From Giardia intestinalis (lineage: Eukaryota), in the NCBI GenBank assembly GCA_000002435.2, contig CM018790.1: 64,000 bases of DNA; one strand, given 5' to 3'. Below the pieces are notes generated by a model. The model did no database searches and was not told where the DNA came from. It worked only from the letters and a program-made list of their open reading frames with translations. Below are positions 40,034 to 60,427 of this stretch, piece by piece; positions within the stretch are counted from its first letter, which is position 1, and each line of letters starts with the position of its first letter. The translations under genes and the position numbers were made by a program.

Positions 40034-42298
40034 TTACGTTACATCATGTTCCTTCTGCTCAAGAAATCCATCAAGTAGAATGAGCATAGGTTTGAACACG
40101 TACTCAGACTCTTTCTTTAGAGACGCTAGCTCATTATTCTGAAGAGGCTTGGCTGAGTACAGTGCATCTAGAAAGACAGCCATCAAAACCAAAAGAGGCA
40201 CAAGCGCCCAGATACACACCATGGTTAGAGTGTTAGTTGCTAGCCGCTGCAAGCCCAGCACTCCTATCTCATATAAAAGGACACAGATTGCCATCTCCAA
40301 AGCGCTGCCATCAAACCGTCCACCCTCAAAGATCCTGTGCCGTTCTAGATGGTGTACGTGACAGCGTGCATACAGAAAATCGGCACCAAAGAGCTGTGCG
40401 GCAGAGGCCATCATAAAGCAGAGCAGAATGGCCAGCGTGATCATAAGAATGCGAAGAAGAGTAAGAAACGCGTTTTTGCGCTTAATCCGCCGCACTGCCC
40501 GGATATTATATTCCAGCCGCCTTAGAATGCTAACGATCACTGCGTGGCAATCCCTGAGAATACGTTCGTTGTCAACAAAAATGGATTGCTCAAGGGACCA
40601 ACAGAGCTCATCGGTAGATGCTAAGAGCTCACCGATTCGGCTGGTAGAGGCACAACTTTGGTGTAAGCCGTTTCCAAGACCAACCTCTGAGCTTGCTGGG
40701 CCCTGAGAAATGATAGAGTGAGCATCATAAGTATTTGGGTTTACGACCCGGAGCATGGTGCCGCATTGGCTAATGAGCTTTCCGGCCATTGCGTTAACGA
40801 TTGCTTGTGAAGCAGCAAGGGTCTTAACTACATTTGACTGCTGCAGCGAATCAGCTAGTGTATAGTTCTGCTGCTGAGAGGGTGCCACTGACGAAGAAAG
40901 GAACTTATCCTGCTTGTCTGCAGATAAGGTCAAAGTAGAGATGCCCAAATGTGTTGGCTCCTGCGAGAGCTGTGGCAGTGCACCTGTTTCTACTTCGCTA
41001 GCTCCATACTGTTGCGGTCTGTTGCTTAGAGTAGCACTCAATTTAGTGACTTCAAGAACTATGTTTGACGTGTCGACAAGCGCTCTTGTTTGCTCATTAA
41101 GACATCTTATAGTATCGCATATATCTTGTTTTAGCCTCGTCGTTTTAGCCTGCTGGTTTGCCATTTTTGCATTGCCATAATGGGGGATACAGACTAGATT
41201 CATTTTGAAACGTCTGTATGGGGAGAGCAATATGAGTGACGAGGCGTACTCCTGAATGGCGTCAATACACGATTGTTTATCTGTAAGACGATCACACTTA
41301 GTAATTAGAATAGTTGTTTTTCCAAAAAGCTCATTTGATGAACTGATGTAGTGTAGTAGCCTTCCATTTTCCACAGAAAAGCCTTCGGTTTTTGTATCTA
41401 TACCACAGCTTGTTGTAAAAAGGATCTTATCAACTTGATGAAAGAGCGCCTTGATTGTGTTTTCAAACACTCGAGTTTCTGCCTTAGAAAAAAGCGAGCT
41501 CGGCTTGGCTTGTTTGCCTCGCTTGGACAGGTTGCTCAGAGAGCTGAGAATTCCTTTTGAAGTCGACGACTCTATCACGTAGCGGTAGAAAAATGGTACT
41601 TCGATGAAAATAAAGGGACACGTAGGCCCCATTAACTGGTCAGATGCTCCATGAAGTATGTTGTTACTCTGTGGTAAATGTGAGACAGACTTTTCTAACT
41701 TATCTATCGAATTATAGAGGGTAGCAGAATTAGACGAGACATCTTTATATCTAGAAGCCGAAGTAGATGAAGAATCACGTCCCCTTGGCAGCTGCTTAGT
41801 GCCCTCAGCAGTCGACTTAGTAGAGTAGTACATGGATTTCCCGGTGGGGGAGAGGTTCGCGTTGTGAAACCCACTTTGTAATTGGCTCTGGTCTGTTGAA
41901 AGCACCGATCCAGGAGTCTGCTTACTATATGAATTAAAAGCGCTGCAACGAATATGCGAGCCTGGGAATCCGTTTTCACGAAAGCAAGCATGGATGGATG
42001 GCAGTGTGTCTGCAAGACTGTCTGTAAAATAGGCAACATCGTTGACGCAAGGCACGTATATATTGATGCACATTCCCTCTGAGCGAAGCCTTGATCCGGT
42101 GATGTGACTTATAAGCGACGATTTTCCGCTGTAGTCCTCGCCAAGAACCAAAATCACTGGTCGTGGATTGGGAGCCTTAAAGGGGGTTGTAATGCGAAGT
42201 CTTTGACCAGCTGAGATTATGTGATGTACATATAGGTCTGAGATGGCTGCTCGTGTTTGCAAAGCCACATCTAAGCCTTGATCTGTATTAGAGATCAT
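40034..42298 (-). CDS. putative P-loop GTPase (dynamin/EHD/Sey1-like G domain) with C-terminal transmembrane hairpin
   Basis: P-loop PVILVLGEDYSGKSSLISHITG (compare EHD 'LVGQYSTGKTT' and Sey1 'GSQSTGKSTLLN'). Candidate G4 'ITKCDRL'. Two hydrophobic helices near the C-terminus (FLTLLRILMITLAILLCFMMASAAQLF, CIWALVPLLVLMAVFLDALY). Family assignment is tentative. Confidence 0.45.
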   Translation of the reverse strand: MISNTDQGLDVALQTRAAISDLYVHHIISAGQRLRITTPFKAPNPRPVILVLGEDYSGKSSLISHITGSRLRSEGMCINIYVPCVNDVAYFTDSLADTLPSIHACFRENGFPGSHIRCSAFNSYSKQTPGSVLSTDQSQLQSGFHNANLSPTGKSMYYSTKSTAEGTKQLPRGRDSSSTSASRYKDVSSNSATLYNSIDKLEKSVSHLPQSNNILHGASDQLMGPTCPFIFIEVPFFYRYVIESSTSKGILSSLSNLSKRGKQAKPSSLFSKAETRVFENTIKALFHQVDKILFTTSCGIDTKTEGFSVENGRLLHYISSSNELFGKTTILITKCDRLTDKQSCIDAIQEYASSLILLSPYRRFKMNLVCIPHYGNAKMANQQAKTTRLKQDICDTIRCLNEQTRALVDTSNIVLEVTKLSATLSNRPQQYGASEVETGALPQLSQEPTHLGISTLTLSADKQDKFLSSSVAPSQQQNYTLADSLQQSNVVKTLAASQAIVNAMAGKLISQCGTMLRVVNPNTYDAHSIISQGPASSEVGLGNGLHQSCASTSRIGELLASTDELCWSLEQSIFVDNERILRDCHAVIVSILRRLEYNIRAVRRIKRKNAFLTLLRILMITLAILLCFMMASAAQLFGADFLYARCHVHHLERHRIFEGGRFDGSALEMAICVLLYEIGVLGLQRLATNTLTMVCIWALVPLLVLMAVFLDALYSAKPLQNNELASLKKESEYVFKPMLILLDGFLEQKEHDVT

Positions 42299-42372
42299 CT
42301 AGCTTTTATTTCTCATTCACTGGTTAATTTCGAGCTAAGTTCCACCCGTGCAGCGGACCAGCCCTTCCCGCG

Positions 42373-43997
42373 CTTTGGGCCCGGGCGGGCACGCTCTGGC
42401 CTGCAGCGCCGCGACCTTCCAGGGCGTCTCCGGGGCCCGGCGAGGCACACCCGCCGCCGCGGGCTGTGCCGGCCGGCCACAGGCGGCTGCTGTTCGCTTC
42501 CTCGCGACCGCTTGCCACCCAGGGTCCTGCCTGTCGCTGAGGGTCCTCGGATCAGGCCCTGTCTCCGGCCAGCCGATCGAGCCGCTACCGGATCACCAGG
42601 AAGAGCAGACCCACCCATTCTGCGGCCGACACACTACCACTCTCGGAAGCGCTACGCACATAGAGAGTCTACAGCGCACTCAGCCTGACAGCTGTGATGA
42701 GCCAATACTCGACAACGCAGCATAGACAAGGGCACCGTCACGCATAGACGCCTCCACATAGTTTGCTTTGGTTCATTACGGCAAGCTTGCCAGCTGCTGT
42801 CCGACTAAATTACTCAAAGAGAACGGCTGCGGTGGACAACATTCTTGCTCATTGAATTTGAGATCCGATGATTCGGATGCCATCTAGTTCTGGTGGAGAA
42901 AGAGATCTCCATGAGTCCCTGCTGCAGGAATCACCAGTTCAGCTCTTGCACTACTGTTTCAGGGACACTCCGTCCCCTTTGCTTACTCCCCTTGGGCGCT
43001 AGAACTTGGGCACTGCCTATGTCTTGTTACATGGGTCGATGGCGCCCCCAACTTCCGTCGCAATGTCTCGTAGGGACCACCGACGTTAGTAGAGGCGTAG
43101 CTCAGATGGCGAGAGGCTGGGGCCTAACGATTAACATTGCTAAGCGTAAGAGCATCCAGAAGGTATGAAAAGTTTTCTTCCTGGGAACCCAGTCTCGAAA
43201 GAGCGGCTATCTGCAGCCCTCAGGGCGATCGCGAGTACATCAAAGCATCTGAAGCTGGTAATTGATACGCCATATGACTTCTACGAATCCTTCAACGGAC
43301 TGGTCAGGGTCTCTAGCTGAGATACTTGTTTCGGACCTGAAGAAGCCCATTGCGTTTTTGGCTATACAGGACAGCGGCAGCCTGGGGGTCCACCTACTGG
43401 GCGTCTACTACAGCAGCTGGCGGTGCCTGACATCATCGAGTAGATGGGTGCCGGTTGTAGAGAGAGACGGCCTAACGACGAACCGGTCCTGATCGCTTCT
43501 GATGCTTTGGATGACGCCTCGACAGACCGAAGCATCACCCCAAGTGTGCTGTGCAGATGGACCAGCCCACACGTCACTGAGCCAGACACACTGCACAGGA
43601 TGGGCGCCGATGCGGTCTCGTGCTGGGTGACGGAGCACCTCTGCGACCCATGAACCGAGGACTGGACCTCTCCCCTGATACCAGCGCATGGGAGTACTCC
43701 ATCGACATCCACGAATGCGTACCACAACCTCAAGATAGAGGCGCATGGGGAGCGCGCCCTCCCGGTCATACTCGGAACCGATGATCGCTTCATGGGGAGA
43801 CGAAGAGGCACCCGAGGAACGGGGTAGACACCGGGGTCGTGGCGTGCGATCTTTGTCGTAGAGCACCAAGACCTTGAAGTACATGGCCAGAGTCAACTGC
43901 TCTGAGGCCAGATCGCCGTGGATGATGCAGACCCGAGACAACGGATGCTCACTAGACATCAGACGAGAATTGACCCCGACGGGCCAGAGAGAAGGGA
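42373..43997. repeat. left arm of a ~1.6-kb inverted repeat (partner 50146-51770)
   Basis: Track ORF pairs are identical and mirror-imaged: 42893-43168(+) = 50975-51250(-), 43262-43492(+) = 50651-50881(-), and 42348-42725(+) ≈ 51418-51768(-). Paired coordinates sum to a constant (~94143). The outer ~350 bp are ~75% GC. Identity decays toward the inner end. Confidence 0.85.
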
Positions 43998-44523
43998 GGA
44001 ATCCTAGAGGCACCGCAAGAAACAGCAGGGACTCTTAAAAGAGACGGGGCATAGGAGTTCTTCCGCCGGGATTCGAGAACACCCGACTCTCGGATTTCTG
44101 ATCTCAGCTAATGTATGAGTGAGAGACTTGCCTAGAGTGGTGGTGGCTCGCATGAGAGACCACTCAGATAGCAAATGAGAGTAAATTAGGGGACCTTATT
44201 GAAAAAGAAACGGTGACCCGAGCTTCACCCATCGTGAAACAAGACCAAGGAGAAGCGCCATGGGTAGAGCAGAGAGTCTGCGAGAAGGCCTGAACCCCGA
44301 AAGGACCGATGTACGCATTCGGTCTGAGCATGCACCCATGAAACGGTAGAGAAATGTACCGGGCCCTGGATGTATCACTGGAGAGGACCCTCTTGTTATG
44401 TTATCAATGACCAACAGTCGTCTCTGAACTGGTCAGAGCTTGAGCGAGGATCACACGCAAGATCTCTGGACAATCCTCAGATAGCCCCAGCAGCATAGTG
44501 TAATAAGCTACATACAACAATGC

Positions 44524-44530
44524 GTTTACT
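44524..44530 (-). promoter_or_regulatory. Giardia polyadenylation signal AGTAAAC, 12 nt downstream of the VSP stop codon
   Basis: Minus-strand read after the stop: ...TGC CGC GGG AAG GCG TAG atgtacttaggtAGTAAACgcatt. This matches the AGTRAAY consensus of Giardia mRNA 3' ends. Confidence 0.6.
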
Positions 44531-44542
44531 ACCTAAGTACAT

Positions 44543-47245
44543 CTACGCCTTCCCGCGGCAGAGGAACCACCAACACAAGAAGCCCACAAGACCACCTACA
44601 ACAACGATCACAGCAACAGAGATGCCCGCGATCGCGCCAGTGCTGAGCCCGCTCTTGTTGACGCTTCCGCCGTTGTCAGTGCCATCCGTCTTGACGTAGC
44701 AGATGACAGAACCACTATTACCAGTTGGAGGATCGCAGCTTGCGCAGTTAGCGACACCCTGGATGCTACCGCTTGTCTCTGTACACAGCTTGCATGCTTT
44801 ACTGGCGTCCAAGTAACGGCCAGGTGGACAGGCGCTGCACTTATCGGGTTGATTGGCCACGGTGCATGTGGCACAAGTGGAATCGCATAATGGACACATG
44901 TTCGAGACAGCTGTCAAGCCATTCGCACATGTTTGGCATTTTCCATCCCCAGTGGGCGTTGTGCAGATGCTCTTCCCGGGGAGCCTGTCAGTCTTGTAGC
45001 ATCCGCCCTCCTGGATGAAGTATCCGGCGGCGCAGACCGTGCAAGCACCGTTAGCGGCAGTGGTGCAGAACAGAGTCCTGGCCGCATTGCTCGTGCAGAC
45101 GCCATTGAGCGGCACGTTGCTCCCCTTGCACTTCGAGCAGTACTTGGTACCTCCAATTGTTAGGCCGCACGTCTCGCACTCCGGGCCTTCCACGCATTGC
45201 TCCACGCACGTGCCGCCCTCATTAAGCTTGCTTTCGTCGGCGTACCTCAGCATCTTCCCGGCGGGACAGGCCGTGCACTTGGAAGCGCCGGCCCCGCTGC
45301 ACTCCGCACAGGAGGGGTCGCAGGGCGCGCACGTTTGTCCGGATAGATACGTTCCGACAGGGCAGGCATCTAAGCATGCCTTCTTCGTCGGGGTCAGATG
45401 CTTGCCTGGTTCACACGCCTCGCAAGTCTGCTTGTCCGAGGAGCACGTCTGGCAGTTCTCGATCGGGCAGTCGGCCGGCGCTGGGTTGCACGCCCTGTTA
45501 TCCCCGCTGGCCACGAATCCCGGCTTGCACGCCTCGCACGTCGCCTTGTCCGAGGAGCACGTCTGGCAGTTCTCGATCGGGCAGTCGGCCGGCGCTGGGT
45601 TGCACGCCCTGTTATCCCCGCTGGCCACGAATCCCGGCTTGCACGCCTCGCACGTCGCCTTGTCCGAGGAGCACGTCTGGCAGTTCTCGATCGGGCAGTC
45701 GGCCGGCGCTGGGTTGCACGCCCTGTTATCCCCGCTGGCCACGAATCCCGGCTTGCACGCCTCGCACGTCGCCTTGTCCGAGGAGCACGTCTGGCAGTTC
45801 TCGATCGGGCAGTCGGCCGGCGCTGGGTTGCACGCCCTGTTATCCCCGCTGGCCACGAATCCCGGCTTGCACGCCTCGCACGTCGCCTTGTCCGAGGAGC
45901 ACGTCTGGCAGTTCTCGATCGGGCAGTCGGCCGGCGCTGGGTTGCACGCCCTGTTATCCCCGCTGGCCACGAATCCCGGCTTGCACGCCTCGCACGTCGC
46001 CTTGTCCGAGGAGCACGTCTGGCAGTTCTCGATCGGGCAGTCGGCCGGCGCTGGGTTGCACGCCCTGTTATCCCCGCTGGCCACGAATCCCGGCTTGCAC
46101 GCCTCGCACGTCGCCTTGTCCGAGGAGCACGTCTGGCAGTTCTCGATCGGGCAGTCGGCCGGCGCTGGGTTGCACGCCCTGTTATCCCCGCTGGCCACGA
46201 ATCCCGGCTTGCACGCCTCGCACGTCGCCTTGTCCGAGGAGCACGTCTGGCAGTTCTCGATCGGGCAGTCGGCCGGCGCTGGGTTGCACGCCCTGTTATC
46301 CCCGCTGGCCACGAATCCCGGCTTGCACGCCTCGCACGTCGCCTTGTCCGAGGAGCACGTCTGGCAGTTCTCGATCGGGCAGTCGGCCGGCGCTGGGTTG
46401 CACGCCCTGTTATCCCCGCTGGCCACGAATCCCGGCTTGCACGCCTCGCACGTCGCCTTGTCCGAGGAGCACGTCTGGCAGTTCTCGATCGGGCAGTCGG
46501 CCGGCGCTGGGTTGCACGCCCTGTTATCCCCGCTGGCCACGAATCCCGGCTTGCACGCCTCGCACGTCGCCTTGTCCGAGGAGCACGTCTGGCAGTTCTC
46601 GATCGGGCAGTCGGCCGGCGCTGGGTTGCACGCCCTGTTATCCCCGCTGGCCACGAATCCCGGCTTGCACGCCTCGCACGTCGCCTTGTCCGAGGAGCAC
46701 GTCTGGCAGTTCTCGATCGGGCAGTCGGCCGGCGCTGGGTTGCACGCCCTGTTATCCCCGCTGGCCACGAATCCCGGCTTGCACGCCTCGCACGTCGCCT
46801 TGTCCGAGGAGCACGTCTGGCAGTTCTCGATCGGGCAGTCGGCCGGCGCTGGGTTGCACGCCCTGTTATCCCCGCTGGCCACGAATCCCGGCTTGCACGC
46901 CTCGCACGTCGCCTTGTCCGAGGAGCACGTCTGGCAGTTCTCGATCGGGCAGTCGGCCGGCGCTGGGTTGCACGCCCTGTTATCCCCGCTGGCCACGAAT
47001 CCCGGCTTGCACGCCTCGCACGTCGCCTTGTCCGAGGAGCACGTCTGGCAGTTCTCGATCGGGCAGTCGGCCGGCGCTGGGTTGCACGCCCTGTTATCCC
47101 CGCTGGCCACGAATCCCGGCTTGCACGCCTCGCACGTCGCCTTGTCCGAGGAGCACGTCTGGCAGTTCTCGATCGGGCAGTCGGTCGATACTGATGTACG
47201 GTGAGCCTGTGTCACTGTAAAAACTAGGAGAAATCCTACCAACAT
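44543..47245 (-). CDS. variant-specific surface protein (VSP) with ~15 tandem 38-aa repeats
   Basis: N-terminal signal peptide MLVGFLLVFTVTQA. Abundant CXXC motifs. Repeat unit CPIENCQTCSSDKATCEACKPGFVASGDNRACNPAPAD iterated about 15 times. C-terminal TM helix followed by the invariant VSP tail CRGKA*. Confidence 0.9.
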   Translation of the reverse strand: MLVGFLLVFTVTQAHRTSVSTDCPIENCQTCSSDKATCEACKPGFVASGDNRACNPAPADCPIENCQTCSSDKATCEACKPGFVASGDNRACNPAPADCPIENCQTCSSDKATCEACKPGFVASGDNRACNPAPADCPIENCQTCSSDKATCEACKPGFVASGDNRACNPAPADCPIENCQTCSSDKATCEACKPGFVASGDNRACNPAPADCPIENCQTCSSDKATCEACKPGFVASGDNRACNPAPADCPIENCQTCSSDKATCEACKPGFVASGDNRACNPAPADCPIENCQTCSSDKATCEACKPGFVASGDNRACNPAPADCPIENCQTCSSDKATCEACKPGFVASGDNRACNPAPADCPIENCQTCSSDKATCEACKPGFVASGDNRACNPAPADCPIENCQTCSSDKATCEACKPGFVASGDNRACNPAPADCPIENCQTCSSDKATCEACKPGFVASGDNRACNPAPADCPIENCQTCSSDKATCEACKPGFVASGDNRACNPAPADCPIENCQTCSSDKATCEACKPGFVASGDNRACNPAPADCPIENCQTCSSDKATCEACKPGFVASGDNRACNPAPADCPIENCQTCSSDKQTCEACEPGKHLTPTKKACLDACPVGTYLSGQTCAPCDPSCAECSGAGASKCTACPAGKMLRYADESKLNEGGTCVEQCVEGPECETCGLTIGGTKYCSKCKGSNVPLNGVCTSNAARTLFCTTAANGACTVCAAGYFIQEGGCYKTDRLPGKSICTTPTGDGKCQTCANGLTAVSNMCPLCDSTCATCTVANQPDKCSACPPGRYLDASKACKLCTETSGSIQGVANCASCDPPTGNSGSVICYVKTDGTDNGGSVNKSGLSTGAIAGISVAVIVVVGGLVGFLCWWFLCRGKA
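45420..47200. repeat. perfect 114-bp tandem repeat array (~15.5 copies) inside the VSP coding sequence
   Basis: The motif 'cagttctcgatcgggcagtcgg' recurs at 45453, 45567, 45681 ... 47163, exactly 114 nt apart (15 intervals). Copies appear identical at nucleotide level. This produces the long periodic spurious ORFs on the opposite strand (45015-47204, 45376-47220, 45398-47194). Confidence 0.9.
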
Positions 47246-47878
47246 TAGCCGGGTTAGTATGCCACTGCTCTTCTGTCAGGCCGGTGTATTGGCCGCGAGC
47301 AGTGAGAGACAGCCGCTCTTGCTCTCTCGATCAGTTGGACTGAAGAAGGATAAGATAGGAGCACGCCCACCGGAGGCCGGCTGATAGTGCAGTTCCCCCT
47401 GACTTCGATAGGAACAGGACCAGTGATGACTAGACTCAGACCGCACCTCTCTTGTGGAATGATTGTTCGGGGCGCACTCCTGTACATTGCTGTCACTGTA
47501 TCACTGGGCCCGCCTGCAAGTGCGCTCAGAGATCCCACGGGTAAGCTGCGCCCACTTCTCGACCGTCCGGAGACGATGGCTAGTTGTGGATAACATACTA
47601 AGAGCTCCTCTCCATCGATGCATCCAGAGCTCAGTGTGGTCCCAGTCGGCGTGCCCTGTCGAGGGTGCTCCATGTCGGCCTCCAGGATCCGGCCTGCTCA
47701 GGGCCATACAAGCCGTTAGTATGCCTCTCCTTGGCCTGCCATCGACAGCTCGCACTGGCCGCCCTGCTCGGGTAGTAGCCAAGGTCACTCCAAAGGGTGG
47801 CTCCGGATTGCAGTTAAGATTAGCGATGGCTGTTGGCTCCACTCCCCGTTCCAACTGCCGCGGAGGGCGCCCTGGGAG

Positions 47879-50016
47879 ATGCTAGTAACAGTGCAGTTAG
47901 CGGCTTTGCAGAGCCGATGGGCGCTGGTGGCATCCCCGTGCTCAGCGGGGGCCTTCAGTGTTATCTACTCTCCCAAGGGATGCCCCTACCTCGCCGTGAG
48001 AGAGATCCGGCTCGACGGTCTGGATCAGCACGGTGTGGATGCTAAAGCGTGGGCTGGTCGCCCTTCTTAACATCTTTCACCTGGGAGTCCTCAAGCACTA
48101 TCAAGTGATTGAAGACGAGGGCCTCATCTACGTCGTCACGGACCGGCACGACAAGACCCTTGAGCGCCTCCTCACCGAGCACAAACGAAGGAAGATCCCC
48201 GTCCCTATCGCTGTGATCCTCTCTGTCATGAAGCAGGTCGCTGCCGCCCTCGCCTACCTCCACGGCCTCAGCGGAGTGGGTGCCGACGGTCGCCCCTACA
48301 AGGGCCTCGTCCACCGCGACCTCAAGCTTGCGAACGTCCTCGTCAGCGCAGATGGTGAACACTTCATCATCGCCGACTTCGGCCTCTGTAAGGACGCCCT
48401 GAGATGCGGGAGCACCATTGCAGGCACGGCAGTATACATGGCCCCCGAGATTCTCCTCCGTAATGAGACCAGCCATGCTTCCGACGTGTGGAGCCTCGGG
48501 GTCATCATTTATGAATTAGTAACTCTGAGGAGACCGGACTTCTTGGGGGGCAAGGAGCCAGCAGAGGTCTTCGTCGACGGGTGGAGGCCGGACCTGAGCG
48601 GTGTCACTGATGGCTTCATAAAGAGTGTTCTGGAGAGGATATTCGTGCTGGAACCAGAGGAAAGACTGACGGCCAGGGAGCTGCACGAGACGCTCACTGC
48701 GGCTGACATCCCAGTTAGTGAGCTGAGGGGCAGTGCGTGATGCTGAGGTACAAGTGCGGATCCTTGGAGGCTGCGCTGAATGGCGCTAACGCCAGGATCG
48801 CGCTGCTGGAAGAGGAGGTTAAGACTAAGTCTACTAAGATTGACGCACTCGAAGAGCAAGGTAAGGAGCACCTAGCCATGATTAAGGCACTGGAGAGTAG
48901 GCTTGCACAGTTCGGTGACAGGATGAACACGACTGACCCTCAGTCCAGCCTCCTTTTGCTGCCCAGGCTGATGCGTGCCGCGCATACGAATAGCATGGAA
49001 ACCGTCTGGATGCTGCTTGAAGAAGGACTCGGCGTTGGCTAGCGTGACGAGCAGGGGCACGTCAGTCCCGTCGAGTTGCTTGTTGGGGAGGAGAGGGGCC
49101 TCCAGGACAGGAACGGCTGGACCCCCTGATGATCACCACAGAGGAGGGCTATGCAAGAGCTGCCTCCCTTCTGGTCCCATATGAGAAGGACCGGATCGGC
49201 AGCGAAGGCAAGACGGCCTTGGTGATTGCGGCAGAGGCAGGACATGGAACTGTGGTGGAGGCCATCGACCCAACCGATGAGAATGGCGTCACGGCGCTCA
49301 TGCGAGCTGTTAATAGAAACTACGTGGGGCCTGTGAAGGCAGTCATACTTAGCCAGAGAAGGAGGAAAACATACAAAGAGGTCATAGCAAGCGGATGGTA
49401 CATGCGCACAGGAACAGCTCTGATGATGGCTGCGGCACATGGATACGCAGAAATAGTAGAACTGCTAGTGGAACACGAAAAGGGGAGAAAGTAGGCGGTT
49501 GGGCCGCTCTCATATTCGCGGCACGGTGCGACCGTTCCAATGACCCCCTGGTGGACTATATTGGGCGCGTTGAGCTTTTGATGGAGTATGAGAGCAATAT
49601 CTCAGGGTGGACGGAGCTCATGTATGCAGTAGCACGAGGGCAGAAGGGAGTGTAGAGCTGCTCAAGCAGGAGACTGGGATACAGAATAACGATCATCAGA
49701 CTGTCCTCACGTGGACGGTGTGCAATGATCACCCAGAGTGTGTCAGGCCCCTGCTGAAGGACGAAGGCTGCATGCAAACGACCAAGGGGGGACCGCCCTT
49801 ATGAACGCAGCATATAGCAACACCGTGGAATGTGCAAGACTTCCTAAAGAAAACGAGAAGGAGCTGAAGACAATTTCTAGCTGCCATGGTCACTCGCCCG
49901 GTACCACTGCCCTCAATATCGCTAAGAAGAAGGATCGCAAAGAGATAGTAGACATCCTCCCAAACGAGATCTACTCTGCTTCATCAAGGTCGGCTTGCCA
50001 GCTCCTGTCCGAGTAA
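47879..50016 (+). pseudogene. NEK-type kinase / coiled-coil / ankyrin-repeat gene disrupted by multiple frameshifts (pseudogene)
   Basis: Kinase N-lobe fragment (GAFSVIYSPKGCPYLAVREIRL, 47879-48070, frame 2) overlaps out of frame with the C-lobe (HRDLKLANVLVSADGEHFIIADFGLCKD...YMAPEIL...DVWSLGVIIYEL, 48033-48740, frame 0). Next comes a coiled coil (48737-49042, frame 2). Ankyrin-repeat pieces follow in frames 1, 0, 2 and 1 (49129-49494, 49395-49655, 49607-49804, 49738-50016; e.g. GKTALVIAAEAGHGTVVEAI, GTALMMAAAHGYAEIVELLVEH, GGTALMNAAYSNTVECARL, TALNIAKKKDRKEIVDIL). At least 6 frame changes in ~2.1 kb. The VAIK lysine is replaced (LAVRE). Confidence 0.6.
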
Positions 50017-50145
50017 ATCCGTCCAGGATCCGGAGTCCGGATGCCGCCCACTCTGGAGAAGAGCCTTGTGCATCCCGCCTAGGAGCCATTGGGTGCTCCA
50101 CTATATGCTTCGGGGCGTCCCTTCTCTCTGGCCCGTCGGGGTCAG

Positions 50146-51770
50146 CCATCGCCTGATATCTAGTGAGCACCCGTTGTCCCGGGCCTTGCGTCGGTCACGG
50201 CGATCCTGTCTCAAGAGCAATTGACTCTGGCCATGTACTCTGGAGTAGCTTTGTGGTGCTGATGCTCCATGACGAAGATCGCGCCCCACGACCCCGGGTG
50301 TCGACTCCCGTTCCTCGGGGTGCCTCTTCATCTTCTCGTGGAGGGCACCATCTGTTCCATTATCAAGGATGCGCTCCCCGTGCGCCTCTGTCTTGGAGTC
50401 ATAGTACGCATTCGTGGATGCCAGCGGAGCACTCCCATGCGGTGGTGTCGGGGGAGAAGTATGGCCCTCCTATTCATGGATCGAAGGGCGCTCTTGCAGG
50501 CGGTCCGTCACCCAGCACGAGACCGCATCGGCGCCCATCCTGTGCAGTGCGTCTGGCTCAGTGACGTGTGGGCTGGTCCATCTGCACCGCAAAGCACGCT
50601 TGGGGGAATGATTCGGTCTGTCGAGGCGTCATCCAAAGCATCAGAAGCGATCAGGACCGGTTCGTCGTTAGGCCGTCTCTCTCTACAACCGGCACCCATC
50701 TACTCGATGATGTCAGGCACCGCCAGCTGCTGTAGTAGACGCCCAGTAGGTGGACCCCCAGGCTGCCGCTGTCCTGTATAGCCAAAAACGCAATGGGCTT
50801 CTTCAGGTCCGAAACAAGTATCTCAGCTAGAGACCCTGACCAGTCCGTTGAAGGATTCGTAGAAGTCATATGGCGTATCAATTACCAGCTTCAGATGCTT
50901 TGATGTACTCGCGATCGCCCTGAGGGCTGCAGATAGCCGCTCTTTCGAGACTGGGTTCCCAGGAAGAAAACTTTTCATACCTTCTGGATGCTCTTACGCT
51001 TAGCAATGTTAATCGTTAGGCCCCAGCCTCTCGCCATCTGAGCTACGCCTCTACTAACGTCGGTGGTCCCTACGAGACATTGCGACGGAAGTTGGGGGCG
51101 CCATCGACCCATGTAACAAGACATAGGCAGTGCCCAAGTTCTAGCGCCCAAGGGGAGTAAGCAAAGGGGACGGAGTGTCCCTGAAACAGTAGTGCAAGAG
51201 CTGAACTGGTGATTCCTGCAGCAGGGACTCATGGAGATCTCTTTCTCCACCAGAACTAGATGGCATCCGAATCATCGGATCTCAAATTCAATGAGCAAGA
51301 ATGTTGTCCACCGCAGCCGTTCTCTTTGAGTAATTTAGTCGGACAGCAGCTGGCAAGCTTGCCGTAATGAACCAAAGCAAACTATGTGGAGGCGTCTATG
51401 CGTGACGGTGCCCTTGTCTATGCTGCGTTGTCGAGTATTGGCTCATCACAGCTGTCAGGCTGAGTGCGCTGTAGACTCTCTATGTGCGTAGCGCTTCCGA
51501 GAGTGGTAGTGTGTCGGCCGCAGAATGGGTGGGTCTGCTCTTCCTGGTGATCCGGTAGCGGCTCGATCGGCTGGCCGGAGACAGGGCCTGATCCGAGGAC
51601 CCTCAGCGACAGGCAGGACCCTGGGTGGCAAGCGGTCGCGAGGAAGCGAACAGCAGCCGCCTGTGGCCGGCCGGCACAGCCCGCGGCGGCGGGTGTGCCT
51701 CGCCGGGCCCCGGAGACGCCCTGGAAGGTCGCGGCGCTGCAGGCCAGAGCGTGCCCGCCCGGGCCCAAAG
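50146..51770. repeat. right arm of the ~1.6-kb inverted repeat (partner 42373-43997)
   Basis: Reverse complement of the left arm (see the left-arm entry). Inner boundary: both arms share '...gaccccgacgggccagagagaaggga' and then diverge. Outer boundary: shared 'gctttgggcccgggcgggc'. Confidence 0.85.
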
Positions 51771-51863
51771 CACAGATGATGGTTCATTTCATCTATTTAC
51801 TAGAAGGCAACTAGCCGAATAGTCTGATAAGTAGCCTCTTCTTATGCATGTTAACTGAATAAG

Positions 51864-54281
51864 TCATATAACTGGGATATAACAGCATCCAATAATAACC
51901 CAGACAGCCGCAATGGTTTCTGCATATCCAAAGACAGAAACGTGCAGTCCTATACGCAGTTTATCCCCATGTGCCTCAACTATACTACGACTTTTATCGT
52001 TTGAAAGAAGCGTCTCTACAATAGGTGGAGCATAGAATCTTAGGCTCCCCATGACCTGCAACGGATAAACTATCAGTGTTTCACGAGAAGAAACATAATT
52101 TTTGAGCGCTACCTTCAAAGTCTCATTGCCTAACTGGCCGATAGTTCCACCCATGAGGCGTGTCTGTTCCCAGGATGCTACTGTGGGCGCCAATATCATA
52201 GAAAGCTGTTCAGATCTGGGTGTTGTCAGTCCAAGTGTTTGCCTCCGTGCTTCAATAAGCCTCCATATATCTGCTGTTAAATAACTGGACAGTGTAGCGG
52301 CCAAGGAGGGGCCAAACGGTTTTAGTATATTCTGGTTTTGAAGCAAACGTGGAAGACGGGTAGAAGTCACTAGATAATCATCGTCATCCATGTTATAGTG
52401 ATAGACATAGCTATTATAGACGCGTTCTATCATGGACTGATTGAAAGCTTTCCAAAATAAGGGCCTGGATATATCTAGAGATATGCCATGTATAAGTTGT
52501 TTTTCAGGTATGTATTGTAGTCTATTTGTACTTTGAATATTAACAAAAAGCATGGTTTCATTGAAAATGCAGTCTATTGTCTCATACGGAAAATGAATAA
52601 CAGTTCCAGCAGAATCAGAGTGTTTATCTATCTTGTATTGACCTTCTGTTGGCAACGAGTGCAGCTCTATCATACCTCCATGATCCGATAACAAGCAGTC
52701 CCAGAATTGAATCACCTGTGCACAGAGTGTGATAACGAACGCAGAGCGGACACTCCTATTTCCAGACACATCCGATTTTAGCCCTGGAAGAGCGCATGTG
52801 CCCAGAGCAACGAATGCCGGTATCTGATATCCTCTCAGCATCGAGCACAAGAGAACTGCCTTGTCAAACGGTGTACCAGCACCGACAGATAGCGTGGTGA
52901 TAACTCGAGACCAGACTAGCTCGTTGTTTCCTGATAGTCCAGCGGTGGCTGGAGTTGATTGGCGTCCAGGTGCTGGCATAAGTTGGATAAAGCGCATGCA
53001 ATAGCTAGCCGTTGGAAGGTACGAGCTTGTAAAGGGAGTGATAAGAGTGGAAATAGGGACCACCATTCCATCATCCCGAAGAGCATGGAGCTGAACAAAA
53101 CGCTTGTCTAGTCCAACCGAACTGGGCTGCGAGCCAAGATAGTCTCTCATAAATACGCTTGCGGTCCTATCATATTCTGCAAGTGCTCTGGAGACTGATC
53201 TTTTTGAGGTTGTTAATATGTCTCTAAGGGAGCGGAAGGAGGCTTCTTCAGAGACATCTGCACTGGTCAGAAGGGGCGTGAAAGTGATTGAAACGTTAAG
53301 AGTACCTAGCCGTATTTTTTCGGTTGGAGTGTTGGGTCCTGGTGCTTGAGAATAAGGGTACATGGGAACACTAACTGCCCCAGCCAGCAGAGAATTGGCC
53401 TTGGTCAGCTCAGTGAAGAACTCCACAAAGCCAACTCGTCCATGTGCATGAAGATACTGCATTCCTGAATAGCTGTGGAACACCGCAAGAAAGGTAAGGT
53501 CAGTTACTTTGAGATCTGAAATTGCTCTGAAAGAAGTCAGCGGAGTGGAGGATATACAGAATCGAATCTTTGAAAACGCTAACGGTGCAAGCCCTATAGT
53601 AGCATCACTTCTTTCACACTTGATTGGCGGACAGACATGCCGCAAATTTCCAAGAGCTATTGTGAGGGTAATCACGCCTTCCTCACTGACGCCAGATTGC
53701 CCACCAAGATTGTTACTACACGGAGGAGCAAGCTCACCCGAGGTGATCTGAACCTCTAGATGTTGTTCTACAAGAGTTCTAGACTCTCTAGCAGCGTGAA
53801 GCGCTGTAAGCATTGAGACGGAATCTCTAACCACTTCACTCATAGCACGTGTTGCCTGACGCTCTGTACTATTTAAATCATCGTGTGTATTCATAGACAA
53901 TACATTAGGCTGTGTGCCCCCCTGGACAGACTCCAAATGGCGGCGAGCTTGCTCTCTTCTTTCCATACGTTCCTCTGCAGACATTGATATGCAATCTGTT
54001 GGCTCTGCAGTGGCCCCAGAGCACTTCGACCTGTGAATAGCATATGCCTCCTTCACTGTTTGCTTATCAAAGGCCTGGTCAAAGTATCTTTCTGCCAGTG
54101 AGTGTACTAAGTTGGACTTTTCCAGGTATACTAAGAGACGCTTTTCTACGTCCCGTGGGTTCATATCTCTATCTATCTTTAGCTCTGGGTCCTTGGACTC
54201 ACTGAGTTCCTGGAAAATGCTCTGCAGCTGCTCTTTTGTAAGCTCTCTTAGAACGAACGCCTTAATGCTCTGGGAGTCCAT
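51864..54281 (-). CDS. hypothetical protein; C-terminal region resembles the inactive transglutaminase-like fold of CEP76/CC2D2A-type ciliary proteins (tentative)
   Basis: 805-aa uninterrupted ORF. The segment ...TPFDKAVLLCSMLRGYQIPAFVALGTCALPG... resembles the TGL-domain core 'A.LLcslL.g.gi.A.v.lG' of CEP76/CC2D2A. Otherwise no motifs. Confidence 0.5.
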   Translation of the reverse strand: MDSQSIKAFVLRELTKEQLQSIFQELSESKDPELKIDRDMNPRDVEKRLLVYLEKSNLVHSLAERYFDQAFDKQTVKEAYAIHRSKCSGATAEPTDCISMSAEERMERREQARRHLESVQGGTQPNVLSMNTHDDLNSTERQATRAMSEVVRDSVSMLTALHAARESRTLVEQHLEVQITSGELAPPCSNNLGGQSGVSEEGVITLTIALGNLRHVCPPIKCERSDATIGLAPLAFSKIRFCISSTPLTSFRAISDLKVTDLTFLAVFHSYSGMQYLHAHGRVGFVEFFTELTKANSLLAGAVSVPMYPYSQAPGPNTPTEKIRLGTLNVSITFTPLLTSADVSEEASFRSLRDILTTSKRSVSRALAEYDRTASVFMRDYLGSQPSSVGLDKRFVQLHALRDDGMVVPISTLITPFTSSYLPTASYCMRFIQLMPAPGRQSTPATAGLSGNNELVWSRVITTLSVGAGTPFDKAVLLCSMLRGYQIPAFVALGTCALPGLKSDVSGNRSVRSAFVITLCAQVIQFWDCLLSDHGGMIELHSLPTEGQYKIDKHSDSAGTVIHFPYETIDCIFNETMLFVNIQSTNRLQYIPEKQLIHGISLDISRPLFWKAFNQSMIERVYNSYVYHYNMDDDDYLVTSTRLPRLLQNQNILKPFGPSLAATLSSYLTADIWRLIEARRQTLGLTTPRSEQLSMILAPTVASWEQTRLMGGTIGQLGNETLKVALKNYVSSRETLIVYPLQVMGSLRFYAPPIVETLLSNDKSRSIVEAHGDKLRIGLHVSVFGYAETIAAVWVIIGCCYIPVI

Positions 54282-58159: not shown

Positions 58160-60427
58160 ATGCCAACTATACTTCCACGCTTCACTTATGTTAAACGGTC
58201 TGGAGACGCACTGACGCCTCTGGGCTCATTTGTTTGTCTTTTTCTCATGGCGATGGACCTGTTCTATGCGTATGCCCTGTCCTCGCAGCTAAGAGTCACG
58301 CAGGAACTTATGTTTTCTATGCCAGCCCACATAATTTCCTTGACTACGATAGTAGGCTTTATTCTTGCTGGGTATATTTCGTTGCCACTTCGCGGCCTTC
58401 TCACCTGTACGCTTGTGGGGTCGGCTATCCCTGTTTTAATCTGCGGAATCGTCTTGACAGCGGGGGCAGCTCCTGTAAGCTCCTGTAGCTATGGACTTGC
58501 CGCATTTGTGGGGATTGCGCTCGGGATTCGTGTCCCCGGCATCTTTGTCTATATGCTTGATGTGAGTCGGAGCCGATTGGGGAACCGTTCAGGGCTCGTG
58601 ATCTCTGGATATCTCTTTGCCTTTTGTCTATGTCTAGTGCAGCAAGCGTTTCTTTACCAAGCCATTGGAATGACAACCTTGAACAAGGCGACCTCGTCTA
58701 CAACTTCGTCTGAATTGTCAGCACTATATACAACTGCCATAACGCCACATATTTCCTATCTGACACTTTCTTATGGCATTGTTTTATCCCTGGGAAGTCT
58801 TATTTTCGTTATTAGTGCAATGCCACACAAGCTTGATCCTAAATCCGGGGATTACAAGCCGCAAACAAAGCGCCAAAAAATTTCATCGTTCAGAGCTGTA
58901 TCCTCTGAGGTTGCAGCCCCTATTGTCTCTCCATTTCACATTACTGGGGTTAAAGTGGGAGATCAGTACATCGCGAATTCCTCTTCGCACTTGAGCACTG
59001 CAAGCCCCCGGACAGCCTATTCTAGCACCATCAAGACGCCTCTAGATATTGCACAGGCAGAGTCAAATCCCCATGCGGTTCTCTCGTCAACTACCAATGG
59101 GTCGGTTATGTTTGCGGTCCATAGCGTTAATACCATGAAGAATATGACCTTTGCAGCATATGAAACATCCTTCAATAATAGCGGTAACGATGTCCGACAT
59201 AACGGAGTGAAGACTCTTCGCCTGTTCAACAAGGGTGTCCACAATAGACTTGCGTATCAAATATGCGCCTTGGTGTGCTTGTTAGCGTCTCTGGAGATTC
59301 TGTTTGCCGCGCTAGCTTACGTTCAGTACAATCTCTCGTCTATAGGGCACCTGAGGACGATATTCCTCCGCCTGGTACCGGATCTGGACAAAATAGGAGG
59401 CTCTACGGGCAGCACTGATCCGTCTAAAAGGCTATATTTACAAAACCTTTTTGCGCTGGCAATCTGGTGCGGAGTCTCCTGCTTTTTATTGTTTATTTTT
59501 TCCATTCTCGCTGCATTTGTCTCTCCCTTGTTTATTAGTTATCGTCAGCGTCTCCTAGAGCTTCCTGGCACCAAGAAGCTAATTTACACGCTCGTAACAC
59601 CAGCTATCCTCTCGTTTCTTCTTCTTTACCTCCCCAATCTGTTAGTTGCTTTCTTCTGTGGTACCACACAGTGCCCCGGATATGAAAATCCATTCACGAT
59701 CTATTTCGTTATTATAATATCAGTATTTGGCGGGTCCTGTGTTCTGTTTCTTGTCTCCCTTAGTATTGCACACATTTATGAGTTTACAGAACAGCTCAAT
59801 CGAAAGTTTAGCCGCCCCATTATTAGGCTCATGGCTCTCCCTTTGATTATCAATCCTCTTGTTGCTCGTCTGTTGGTGTTCGACTTATCTCGCATACCAT
59901 ACTTTTCGGTAGTTTACTCCGAGCTCAATAACAGTTCTACGTCACAGGCACTTGTTCTGGTTGGCATTCTTATTAGCATAAGTGGGCTGCTTACTGCCCT
60001 GGGACTGATACTGATAGTGGTCGGTAAGGGACACGAGCATACGGCACAAGTGGACTTTGAAAAGATAGGGATAACCCTTAAGTCTCCAAATGCATCTCGG
60101 AAGGGCGCAGGTAGTCTTCAGAAGAAGCCCTTAAAAGATGATGAAGTGCTCCATGAAATCCCGAAGCCTTTTTCACGCGTGCTCGTGGAGCCATCCGATC
60201 AGTCCCAGAGCCATGAAGAAGCTCAAAGCACGGGGGATCAAAGCCACTGTCTGGAAAAGGCACATCCTAATCATCCGACCACTGACAACGGTCCTTTAAG
60301 CCGATCAATTTATCAACACGAGGTTGTCTGCGACTCGTCGACTCCCGCGTCTCCAGCAAGCATTTCTCCAAACACTACTATGACTAGCCAGTTACGTAGG
60401 CCAAGAGACAGCCTCACAGACCCTTAG
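58160..60427 (+). CDS. multi-pass transmembrane protein, putative transporter
   Basis: ATG at 58160. At least 10 hydrophobic helices (e.g. IISLTTIVGFILAGYISL, LVGSAIPVLICGIVLTAGAA, LAAFVGIALGIRVPGIFVYML, LVISGYLFAFCLCLVQQAFLY, AIWCGVSCFLLFIFSILAAFVSPLFI, VIIISVFGGSCVLFLVSLSIA). Hydrophilic C-terminal tail. Confidence 0.6.
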   Translation: MPTILPRFTYVKRSGDALTPLGSFVCLFLMAMDLFYAYALSSQLRVTQELMFSMPAHIISLTTIVGFILAGYISLPLRGLLTCTLVGSAIPVLICGIVLTAGAAPVSSCSYGLAAFVGIALGIRVPGIFVYMLDVSRSRLGNRSGLVISGYLFAFCLCLVQQAFLYQAIGMTTLNKATSSTTSSELSALYTTAITPHISYLTLSYGIVLSLGSLIFVISAMPHKLDPKSGDYKPQTKRQKISSFRAVSSEVAAPIVSPFHITGVKVGDQYIANSSSHLSTASPRTAYSSTIKTPLDIAQAESNPHAVLSSTTNGSVMFAVHSVNTMKNMTFAAYETSFNNSGNDVRHNGVKTLRLFNKGVHNRLAYQICALVCLLASLEILFAALAYVQYNLSSIGHLRTIFLRLVPDLDKIGGSTGSTDPSKRLYLQNLFALAIWCGVSCFLLFIFSILAAFVSPLFISYRQRLLELPGTKKLIYTLVTPAILSFLLLYLPNLLVAFFCGTTQCPGYENPFTIYFVIIISVFGGSCVLFLVSLSIAHIYEFTEQLNRKFSRPIIRLMALPLIINPLVARLLVFDLSRIPYFSVVYSELNNSSTSQALVLVGILISISGLLTALGLILIVVGKGHEHTAQVDFEKIGITLKSPNASRKGAGSLQKKPLKDDEVLHEIPKPFSRVLVEPSDQSQSHEEAQSTGDQSHCLEKAHPNHPTTDNGPLSRSIYQHEVVCDSSTPASPASISPNTTMTSQLRRPRDSLTDP

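What the first reader, a model, noticed from the sequence alone, without database searches (positions are those of the whole stretch)
42373..51770. VSP gene sits in a ~9.4-kb cassette bracketed by a ~1.6-kb inverted repeat
Two arms (42373-43997 and 50146-51770) are exact reverse complements over most of their length. Independent track ORFs are identical in mirror positions, with coordinates summing to ~94143. Between the arms lie only lineage-specific, fast-evolving genes: a repeat-expanded VSP (minus strand) and a frameshifted NEK-ankyrin pseudogene (plus strand). Immediately outside both arms are conserved-type genes: the GTPase-like protein, whose ATG is ~75 nt from the left arm, and the 805-aa protein, whose stop is ~95 nt from the right arm. 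This looks like a discrete surface-antigen island inserted into core gene space. Arm identity is near-perfect at the outer ends and decays toward the inner ends, which suggests gene conversion or recent duplication seeded from the outer ends. Large inverted repeats can mediate inversion or fold-back of a read-through transcript into a long hairpin dsRNA. That is relevant because Giardia VSP switching is reported to involve RNAi on VSP transcripts. Whether this cassette inverts or yields hairpin RNA is my inference, not shown by the sequence.
Basis: partly seen in the sequence, partly recalled or inferred. Interest (0 to 1): 0.8.

Follow-up and report, generated by a model that had tools for sequence, protein, structure and literature searches.

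The report
Inverted duplication around a Giardia VSP
A real 1.6-kb inverted duplication made of decayed retrotransposon and intergenic DNA brackets one surface-antigen gene and a dead kinase gene in Giardia WB; it is one more example of the palindromic duplications already known in this parasite's variable gene islands, and nothing here shows that it acts as a switch.

Summary
The arms are 42372-43997 and 50118-51771. They are perfectly complementary for 1160 nt from the outer ends, then about 83% alike with indels. Between them lie an intact VSP (vsp100, GL50803_33279) and a frameshifted NEK/ankyrin pseudogene.

The window is Giardia intestinalis WB. The arms are non-coding and are not the ends of a mobile cassette:
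- The outer ~226 nt is the native 3' flank of the CEP76-like gene, contiguous with that gene in assemblage E.
- About 42900-43210 is a decayed non-LTR reverse-transcriptase remnant.

So this is a segmental inverted duplication kept alike by gene conversion. An independent A2 assembly (DH) has the same layout and orientation, with its inner arms 100% identical. Assemblage E (P15) carries homologous repeat copies next to both flanking genes. Their polarity is reversed and the content differs (GTPase, ankyrin and RT genes, no VSP). The locus is therefore an old, reused rearrangement site.

Published WB work already describes inverted VSP pairs with RT remnants or NEK genes between them; here the topology is the reverse. 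All three genes that point into an arm have poly(A) signals before the arm, and the arms hold no VSP sequence. This argues against the hairpin-RNA idea. Inversion is untested; only one orientation was seen.

Verdict: real, ordinary, new member of a known kind.

The parts
42372..43997 (+). Left arm of the inverted duplication, read outer to inner on the + strand. It is non-coding. Positions 42372-42597 copy the CEP76 3' flank, about 42900-43210 is a decayed RT remnant, and 43210-43997 is the tail of the retroelement remnant.
   Evidence: Searches give the alignment. One search finds no stop-free stretch longer than 208 codons. Searches find no protein or Pfam match. Searches show the RT match. 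Searches show the P15 homology.
50118..51771 (-). Right arm, read outer to inner on the - strand. Its outer 226 nt (51771-51546) is the ancestral 3' flank of the CEP76-like gene.
   Evidence: In one search, P15 L014 10001-12769 aligns without a break to window 54281-51546.
42372..43531 (.). Perfectly identical core of the arms (1160 nt). Its partner is 50612-51771. This is the presumed recent gene-conversion tract.
43532..43997 (.). Diverged inner part of the left arm. Its partner is 50118-50611. Identity is about 83.5% with indels.
   Evidence: WB-left, WB-right and DH are about equally distant from one another (81-83%).
43998..44542 (.). Spacer between the left arm and the VSP stop. Positions 44100-44173 continue the homology with the P15 retroelement tail beyond the arm boundary. 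This continuation is on the left side only.
44543..47245 (-). Intact VSP gene (vsp100 / GL50803_33279), 900 aa. It ends in CRGKA and has a TAATGTT initiator, the extended VSP poly(A) signal 4 nt after the stop, and 15.5 copies of a 114-nt repeat at 45414-47184.
   Evidence: (Pfam VSP, 3e-164), and (table of PMC2996952).
47879..50016 (+). NEK kinase / ankyrin pseudogene, split over several frames. It includes the old-annotation ORFs GL50803_104062 and GL50803_104063.
   Evidence: In DH the kinase part is one 411-aa ORF.
44363..44434 (.). One copy of a short, degenerate nested inverted repeat that brackets the VSP. Its partner is 47561-47630. Identity is 75% over 72 nt.
   Evidence: DH also has it (70 nt, 81%).
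40034..42298 (-). Left flanking core gene GL50803_17385 (754 aa). It has a P-loop-like motif and no Pfam hit.
51864..54281 (-). Right flanking core gene, a CEP76-like 'centrosomal protein' (805 aa). A poly(A)-like AGTAAAT lies at 51801, before the arm.

Best explanation
This is a segmental inverted duplication in a variable-gene island of Giardia intestinalis WB. The island lies between the CEP76-like gene and GL50803_17385.

Each arm is non-coding. It consists of about 226 nt of the CEP76-like gene's own 3' intergenic DNA, followed by about 1.4 kb of a 5'-truncated, decayed non-LTR retrotransposon (the end of the RT domain plus its tail).

Shown:
- The duplicate was made by copying DNA within the locus. 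It did not arise from two transposon insertions.
- The arm sequence and its association with a NEK gene predate the split of assemblages A and E.
- The full layout with the VSP is shared by sub-assemblages A1 and A2.

Inferred:
- Intrachromosomal gene conversion keeps the arms alike. In WB the tract now covers only the outer 1160 nt, and the inner 440 nt has drifted apart. In DH the inner arms, the only part held for both sides, are 100% identical.
- The structure is a by-product of the recombination-prone VSP / NEK / RT-remnant islands. It has no dedicated function.
- Its likely consequences are assembly breaks, local instability and a latent capacity for inversion of the 6.1-kb centre.
For: The arms are non-coding. 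There are no long ORFs, no homologs for a six-frame composite, no Pfam hit and no Rfam hit.

The outer arm is the native CEP76 flank. One P15 alignment spans the gene and runs 351 nt past the stop, through the arm boundary.

The RT remnant is supported by these results:
- Residues 329-371 of the P15 RVT_1 ORF match WB 43079-43207 and the DH arm.
- A P15 arm-like copy that is 75% identical to WB 42592-43314 keeps a degenerate YADD box.

Independent assemblies agree:
- The DH contig is collinear with 50510-42299 in the same orientation.
- DH has a 366-nt perfect inner inverted repeat.
- Short-read contigs break at the arm edges.

Concerted evolution is supported. The WB and DH arms are each more alike within a genome than between genomes in the outer part. 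Informative sites in the inner part give a star tree: 30 L-like, 36 R-like and 43 DH-private.

Published context:
- WB has 19 inverted VSP pairs. Four of the seven pairs that point away from each other have an RT remnant between them, and one has a NEK (PMC7000408).
- Identical inverted pairs show abrupt divergence points (PMC2996952).
- VSP, NEK, Protein 21.1 and RT sequences mark synteny breaks and GC-rich islands (PMC3091692).
Against: - The order of events cannot be reconstructed.
- The left arm carries the native continuation of the retroelement tail (44100-44173), while the right arm carries the native CEP76 junction. A single copy-and-paste does not explain both without a later flip or deletion.
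- In P15 the polarity of the copies relative to both flanking genes is reversed. No single inversion explains this.
- The P15 contigs are not joined, so their relative orientation is assumed from synteny.
- I could not search the whole WB genome for other arm copies.
- Lack of function is an inference from lack of coding, lack of conserved blocks and neutral-looking divergence. It was not tested.
Confidence: 0.75

Rival explanations
1. Invertible cassette. Homologous recombination between the arms flips the 6.1-7.1 kb centre at an appreciable rate. This changes the context of the VSP and may contribute to its on/off state.
For: - The 1160-nt perfect inverted homology is an adequate substrate.
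- The retroelement tail continues past the arm only on the left side, while the native CEP76 junction is on the right. This would be explained by an odd number of past flips (inference).
- Nanopore work predicts many inversions within Giardia isolates, with structural variants enriched for VSPs (PMC7048089).
Against: - WB and DH, which differ by about 5% in the outer arms, show the same orientation.
- No recombinase gene lies at the locus.
- Flipping would not move the VSP relative to its own promoter or poly(A) signal, since both flip with it.
- Published work describes VSP switching as epigenetic or post-transcriptional (PMC2996952 abstract).
- Short reads cannot test orientation, and the structural-variant tables held here were cut.
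Confidence: 0.12
2. Hairpin or trans double-stranded RNA source. Transcripts that cover both arms, or read-through RNAs from the VSP and from the CEP76-like gene, pair over the arms and feed Dicer, which silences this VSP.
For: - The arms are perfectly complementary over 1160 nt.
- VSP read-through RNA (- strand of the left arm) and CEP76 read-through RNA (- strand of the right arm) would be complementary to each other. This follows directly from the geometry.
- A review reports that Giardia retrotransposons yield small RNAs (PMC10999387).
Against: - The arms hold no VSP sequence, so arm-derived siRNAs would not match the VSP ORF.
- Each gene that points into an arm has a poly(A) signal before the arm: VSP at 44530, NEK pseudogene at 50012, CEP76-like gene at 51801.
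- One RNA covering both arms would need to be at least 9.4 kb and to read through two such signals.
- No RNA data were available here.
Confidence: 0.06
3. Two independent insertions of the same retrotransposon in opposite orientations, rather than a duplication of local DNA.
For: - The arms contain an RT remnant.
- P15 has several arm-like copies associated with RT ORFs.
- 5' truncation is typical of non-LTR elements (general knowledge).
Against: - The repeat includes 226 nt that is the native 3' flank of the CEP76-like gene in P15, so the copied unit is not an element.
- The element is dead, with stops, frameshifts and a YADD box lost, yet the arms are perfectly identical for 1160 nt.
- No target-site duplication or shared terminal motif is visible at the junctions.
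Confidence: 0.04
4. Assembly artefact: a false palindrome, or a collapse in the long-read assembly.
For: Perfect identity over 1160 nt could in principle come from polishing with multi-mapping reads.
Against: - The two arms have different unique flanks on both sides.
- Short-read contigs from 20 or more samples end about 30 nt (k-1) into the arm.
- Other contigs run 1.1-1.2 kb from the 754-aa gene into the arm.
- The independent DH assembly has both inner junctions.
- The old-annotation protein accessions on record run in order across the interval: XP_001706158, 706161, 706162 and 706166.
Confidence: 0.02

Closest known systems
Inverted pairs of identical VSP genes in Giardia WB (Adam et al. 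2010, PMC2996952; Xu et al. 2020, PMC7000408)
   Same: Same organism and the same kind of island. Both have near-perfect inverted copies a few kb apart with sharp outer divergence points. Both are associated with RT remnants and NEK genes, are thought to arise by duplication, and break short-read assemblies.
   Different: In those pairs the VSP ORFs are the arms, and the 2.2-3.8 kb spacer (up to 12.4 kb) is non-coding or holds an RT remnant or a NEK. Here the arms hold the RT remnant plus intergenic DNA, and the single VSP and the NEK pseudogene sit in the 6.1-kb spacer. The locus is not in either paper's list. At 1.66 kb it also falls below the >2 kb / >95% threshold of the self-similarity track in Xu et al.
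Dead non-LTR retrotransposon remnants of Giardia (the third, 'dead' family of Arkhipova and Morrison 2001, called GilD; annotated as RT remnants in the WB reference)
   Same: The arms contain a degenerate end of an RVT_1 domain followed by a long non-coding tail. They lie at an internal, non-telomeric site at a synteny break, as PMC3091692 reports for RT sequences.
   Different: Only about 300 nt of RT is recognisable. Assignment to GilD itself could not be tested because no reference sequence was available here. The repeat unit extends beyond the element into gene-flanking DNA.
Large inverted repeats kept alike by gene conversion, such as plastid inverted repeats and human Y-chromosome palindromes (general knowledge)
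   Same: Arm-to-arm identity is far higher than expected from the age of the structure. Homogenisation differs between lineages, and the spacer is unique.
   Different: Here homogenisation is partial and graded in WB. The arms carry no genes, so no gene-preserving role can be invoked.
DNA-inversion switches for surface antigens in bacteria, such as invertible promoters and shufflons (general knowledge)
   Same: Inverted repeats bracket a surface-antigen gene.
   Different: Those use short repeats and a dedicated site-specific recombinase, and inversion couples or uncouples a promoter. Here no recombinase is present, the VSP carries its own promoter and poly(A) signal inside the invertible part, and only one orientation has been seen.

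Membership tests
Giardia inverted identical VSP pairs | Each arm contains a VSP ORF, and the two ORFs are identical or nearly so | tested here: not met
   The arms have no ORF longer than 208 codons. They give no Pfam VSP hit and no protein homologs. The only VSP lies between the arms.
Giardia inverted identical VSP pairs | Two inverted copies a few kb apart, nearly identical up to a point of abrupt divergence | tested here: met
   The perfect run is 1160 nt. Identity drops to none at 42371/51772. The spacer is 6120 nt, which is within the published 2.2-12.4 kb range.
Giardia inverted identical VSP pairs | Association with an RT remnant or a NEK gene | tested here: met
   The RT remnant is in the arms and the NEK pseudogene is in the spacer. 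The positions are reversed relative to the published pairs.
Non-LTR retrotransposon remnant (dead Giardia family) | Homology to a reverse-transcriptase domain | tested here: met
   Residues 329-371 of the P15 RVT_1 ORF match WB 43079-43207 (E 0.001 against the window; 7e-6 against the arms). A P15 arm-like copy keeps 'PRLATWVDGILIFHS' and 'GLTINIDKCRSTQRGQEVSFLGA'. The match is weak: Pfam itself finds nothing in the WB arm.
Non-LTR retrotransposon remnant (dead Giardia family) | Sequence identity to the described GilD, GilM or GilT elements | not testable with these tools
   No Giardia genome or element sequences are in the searchable collections, and the defining paper is not held.
Non-LTR retrotransposon remnant (dead Giardia family) | The repeat unit coincides with the element (element ends, target-site duplication) | tested here: not met
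   The repeat runs 226 nt into the native CEP76 3' flank. No duplication or common motif is seen at the junctions.
VSP family (the gene in the centre) | C-terminal CRGKA after a hydrophobic anchor, CXXC-rich ectodomain, signal peptide, TAATGTT initiator, and extended poly(A) signal ACTTAGGTAGTRAAYGC within 15 nt of the stop | tested here: met
   The protein ends in ...FLCRGKA. Pfam VSP scores 3e-164. 'gcTAATGTTgg' is at the start. 'ACTTAGGTAGTAAACGC' lies 4 nt after TAG.
Invertible DNA switch | Both orientations present in a population or clone | not testable with these tools
   Only assemblies were available. WB and DH have the same orientation. Short-read contigs cannot bridge the 1160-nt core.
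Invertible DNA switch | A recombinase encoded at or near the locus | tested here: not met
   The ORFs between and beside the arms are the VSP, the NEK/Ank fragments, the CEP76-like gene, a protein with no Pfam hit, and a HECT ligase.
Hairpin / endo-siRNA locus | Both arms on one transcript, or convergent transcripts over an arm; small RNAs from both strands | not testable with these tools
   No expression data were available. The sequence argues against it, because poly(A) signals precede each arm.

The most novel reading that the evidence does not exclude
The palindrome is a long-lived, recombination-active module. It has been kept at this site since before assemblages A and E split. It either flips its centre or pairs VSP read-through RNA with CEP76 read-through RNA over the arms. 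Under this reading, a retrotransposon-derived repeat nucleates silencing or switching of the enclosed VSP.
Probability: 0.08. Interest if true: 0.7.

Novelty: new member of a known kind. Interest (0 to 1): 0.3.

Why it matters
Giardia's variable islands (VSP, NEK, ankyrin genes and RT remnants) are already known to be where synteny breaks and where inverted duplicates accumulate. This locus adds a clean, datable example.
- The same palindrome is seen in A1 and A2, with different extents of arm homogenisation.
- A rearranged homolog is present in assemblage E.
- Divergence rises in a gradient from about 1% in the flanks to 15-35% in the centre.

That makes it a convenient place to measure gene-conversion tract lengths and rearrangement rates near VSP genes. 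It is also a reminder that VSP-flanking repeats break short-read assemblies. As it stands, it does not change the current picture of antigenic variation.

Tried and rejected
- A six-frame composite of the left arm and spacer found no homolog at E <= 0.01 among 5.8 billion proteins.
- Pfam on arm translations from WB and P15 found nothing.
- Rfam found only sub-threshold snoRNA-like hits at E about 0.9.
- I tested whether the arm is a pseudogene of the gene that sits between the two flank orthologs in run ERR3333380. Only marginal hits appeared (E 0.017 in a 10-kb database, not collinear), so I rejected this.
- I looked for RT homology across the whole arm. Nothing was convincing left of about 42900, and tblastx gave only noise.
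- I tried to read cassette orientation in two nanopore assemblies from the supplementary GFF files of PMC7048089. The stored files are cut before the flank gene IDs, so only the internal ORFs were found.
- I looked for an 'empty site' with the two flank genes adjacent. None was found. Contigs of assemblages B, C/D(?) and E all break or differ just upstream of the 754-aa ortholog. The assemblage of runs ERR3333379 and ERR3333380 could not be verified.
- The papers on GilD and on Giardia endo-siRNAs are not held.
- An exact look-up of a 51-aa arm ORF found it only next to the 754-aa gene. This argues against identical copies elsewhere but cannot detect diverged ones.
Full report
**Observation**

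- Gapped blastn aligns 42372-43997 with 51771-50118 at 93.6% over 1660 columns with 24 gap openings.
- The perfect run is 1160 nt (42372-43531 / 50612-51771). The next 23 nt add 5 mismatches, so the '1183 nt, 100%' was rounded.
- Further in, blocks of 79-96% identity are offset by indels. The inner 440 nt is 83.5% identical overall.
- It is the only long inverted repeat in the window.
- The arm edges lie 73 nt from the ATG of the 754-aa gene and 92 nt from the stop of the 805-aa gene.

**Identity of the sequence**

Exact protein look-ups place the window on the 1.54-Mb chromosome of Giardia intestinalis WB.
- The left flank is GL50803_17385 (KAE8302294).
- The right flank is 'centrosomal protein' (KAE8302296).
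- The 805-aa protein has the CEP76 peptidase-like and C-terminal domains. The 754-aa protein has no Pfam hit.

**Content between the arms**

The 900-aa ORF at 44543-47245 (-) is a complete VSP.
- Pfam VSP scores 3e-164.
- It has the CRGKA end and the TAATGTT initiator.
- The extended VSP poly(A) signal ACTTAGGTAGTAAACGC lies 4 nt after the stop (motif as given in PMC3091692).
- It carries 15.5 copies of a 114-nt repeat.
- It matches vsp100 / GL50803_33279 in the table of Adam et al. (TR114, 748 aa, 11 copies, chromosome 2), since 748 + 4 x 38 = 900.

On the + strand, 47879-50016 holds protein-kinase and ankyrin fragments in several frames. This is a NEK pseudogene. The island is GC-rich (0.51-0.69) against flanks of 0.40-0.49.

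**What the arms are**

The arms are non-coding.
- There is no stop-free stretch over 208 codons.
- A six-frame composite found no protein homolog.
- There are no Pfam or Rfam matches.

Comparison with assemblage E (P15) resolves their origin.
- First, a single P15 alignment runs from the CEP76-like gene through 351 nt of downstream DNA. It corresponds to window 54281-51546 and crosses the arm boundary at 51771 without a break. The outer 226 nt of the right arm is therefore the gene's ancestral 3' flank, and its mirror copy next to GL50803_17385 is derived.
- Second, a 373-aa P15 ORF with an RVT_1 domain (annotated reverse transcriptase/endonuclease) overlaps the P15 arm homolog. Its residues 329-371 match WB 43079-43207 and the same place in DH.
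- Third, another P15 copy is 75% identical to WB 42592-43314. It still reads 'PRLATWVDGILIFHS ... GLTINIDKCRSTQRGQEVSFLGA', which is a degenerate YADD box and the motif that follows it.

The arm is thus a piece of gene flank plus a 5'-truncated, decayed non-LTR retroelement and its tail. The repeat is a segmental duplication, not a pair of element insertions. No block of the arm is unusually conserved between A and E.

**Reality and age**

Short-read assemblies of many WB-type samples end about 30 nt into the arm on the CEP76 side. On the other side they end either about 30 nt or 1.1-1.2 kb into the arm. This is the expected behaviour at an exact two-copy repeat.

The independent assembly of isolate DH (sub-assemblage A2, contig AHGT01000023) is collinear with window 50510-42299 in the same orientation. 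It runs inner right arm, NEK, VSP, left arm, GL50803_17385. In DH the first 366 nt are 100% complementary to the inner left arm, so DH has the palindrome as well, and its inner arms are fully alike.

WB versus DH identity falls steadily toward the centre:

| Region | WB vs DH identity |
|---|---|
| Flanking gene | about 99% |
| Outer arm | 95.3% |
| 43079-43554 | 91.8% |
| Inner arm | about 81% |
| Spacer | 64-89% |

At the 70 sites where the WB inner arms differ from each other, DH agrees with the left arm at 30, with the right arm at 36 and with neither at 4. At a further 43 sites DH alone differs from both WB arms. The three sequences therefore form a star. The simplest reading is that the arms were alike in the common ancestor, that conversion still covers the inner arm in DH, and that in WB it has been confined to the outer 1160 nt. 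This step is inferred. The excess divergence of the interior over the outer arm fits the published note that regions around VSPs carry more allelic variation (PMC7000408).

**Assemblage E**

P15 has homologous copies beside both flank genes, 90% alike over 1287 nt. Their polarity relative to the genes is the reverse of WB:
- The end that is inner in WB lies 23 nt from the ATG of the 754-aa ortholog.
- The same end lies about 535 nt from the CEP76 stop, after the conserved flank piece.

The genes next to them are an AIG1-like GTPase, a GTPase-ankyrin protein and the RT ORF, with no VSP. A third P15 contig carries the following:
- An arm-like copy next to a likely ortholog of the WB NEK pseudogene (70-75% nucleotide identity).
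- A 99% copy of the RT segment.
- A separate 1.3-kb inverted repeat around that NEK gene.

The P15 contigs are not joined, so their relative order is assumed. In assemblage B, three assemblies stop about 200-555 nt upstream of the 754-aa ortholog. In run ERR3333380 a different gene sits next to each flank ortholog. The interval is therefore a reused rearrangement site, and the arm-NEK association predates the A/E split.

One detail hints at a past flip. Homology with the P15 element tail continues about 175 nt beyond the arm only on the left side (44100-44173), whereas the native CEP76 junction is on the right. This is inference only.

**Mechanism and rivals**

The best-supported account is a passive palindromic duplication maintained by gene conversion in a recombination-prone island.

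- The arms have no VSP sequence.
- The VSP, the NEK pseudogene and the CEP76-like gene each have an AGTRAAY signal before the arm they face, at 44530, 50012 and 51801.

The geometry does mean that read-through RNAs from the VSP and from the CEP76-like gene would be complementary. The idea is therefore not excluded, only unsupported.

*Inversion.* Inversion between the arms is physically plausible. However, only one orientation is seen in WB and DH, there is no recombinase, and the VSP would carry its own signals with it.

*Assembly artefact.* This is essentially excluded.

**Comparison with what is known**

- Adam et al. described 14 inverted pairs of identical VSP genes with 2.2-3.8 kb between them and abrupt divergence points (PMC2996952).
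- Xu et al. list 19 pairs. [quoted passage not shown]
- Jerlström-Hultqvist et al. showed that VSP, NEK, Protein 21.1 and RT sequences mark synteny breaks and GC-rich islands (PMC3091692).

The present structure uses the same ingredients in the reverse arrangement: RT remnant in the arms, VSP and NEK in the spacer. It is not in either list, and it is too short for the self-similarity track of Xu et al. I file it as a new member of the known class of inverted segmental duplications in Giardia variable islands. It is not a member of the 'identical VSP pair' family, because the defining feature of that family (a VSP in each arm) was tested and not met.

**Verdict**

Interest is low to moderate (0.3). 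The most novel reading not excluded is a conserved recombination or RNA-pairing module acting on the enclosed VSP, at about 8% probability.

Noticed in passing
window 45414-47184: The VSP repeat array has 15.5 copies of 114 nt here, against 11 copies (748 aa) listed for vsp100 / GL50803_33279 in the 2010 table. The older assembly probably collapsed it, or copy number varies. The long ORFs on the opposite strand (729, 614 and 598 aa) are by-products of the repeat.
   Followed up: partly
window 44363-44434 and 47561-47630: A short, degenerate inverted repeat (75% over 72 nt) brackets the VSP gene itself, nested inside the large one. DH has the same pair (70 nt, 81%). It may be the trace of an older palindrome.
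   Followed up: partly
window 42300-44600 versus L020 (DH): Divergence between sub-assemblages A1 and A2 rises from about 1% in the flank gene to 5% in the outer arm and 15-35% in the inner arm and spacer. The interior is far more diverged than the flanks. This could reflect faster change or an older haplotype; I did not resolve which.
   Followed up: partly
L023 1-1322 and 4128-5449 (P15 contig ACVC01000363): P15 has a separate 1.3-kb inverted repeat (93-96%) around a NEK/ankyrin gene that is the likely ortholog of the WB NEK pseudogene. Each arm carries an ORF (394 aa and 299 aa) with no Pfam hit on record.
   Followed up: no
L007 2892-5189 and 1-2729; L014 14079-15200 (P15): Where WB has a VSP, P15 has an AIG1-like GTPase (765 aa), a GTPase-ankyrin protein and a dead RT ORF. 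This matches the published remark that GTP-binding and RT genes mark synteny breaks in P15.
   Followed up: partly
L009, L010, L011 (assemblage B); L012, L013, L016 (runs ERR3333379 and ERR3333380): Every assembly of every assemblage examined breaks or changes content within about 50-1000 nt upstream of the 754-aa ortholog. In ERR3333380 another gene, with a signal-peptide N-terminus, appears to lie between the two flank orthologs.
   Followed up: partly
window 42766-42810 and 49974-50018: A 45-nt direct similarity (80%) links the middle of the left arm to the 3' end of the NEK pseudogene, about 100 nt inside the right arm. It may be chance or a rearrangement scar.
   Followed up: no
window 58160-60427 and 61227-63881: The longest ORFs here (755 and 884 aa) are longer than the proteins in the current WB annotation (726 and 874 aa), so the start codons were chosen differently. 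The 884-aa form is what short-read gene calls and the DH annotation use.
   Followed up: no
L001 and L002 (Logan contigs), window 43465-43508: Some short-read contigs run from the 754-aa gene into the arm and stop 23-66 nt before the end of the perfect run, not at it. No contig from the CEP76 side enters the arm. I have no explanation for this asymmetry.
   Followed up: no
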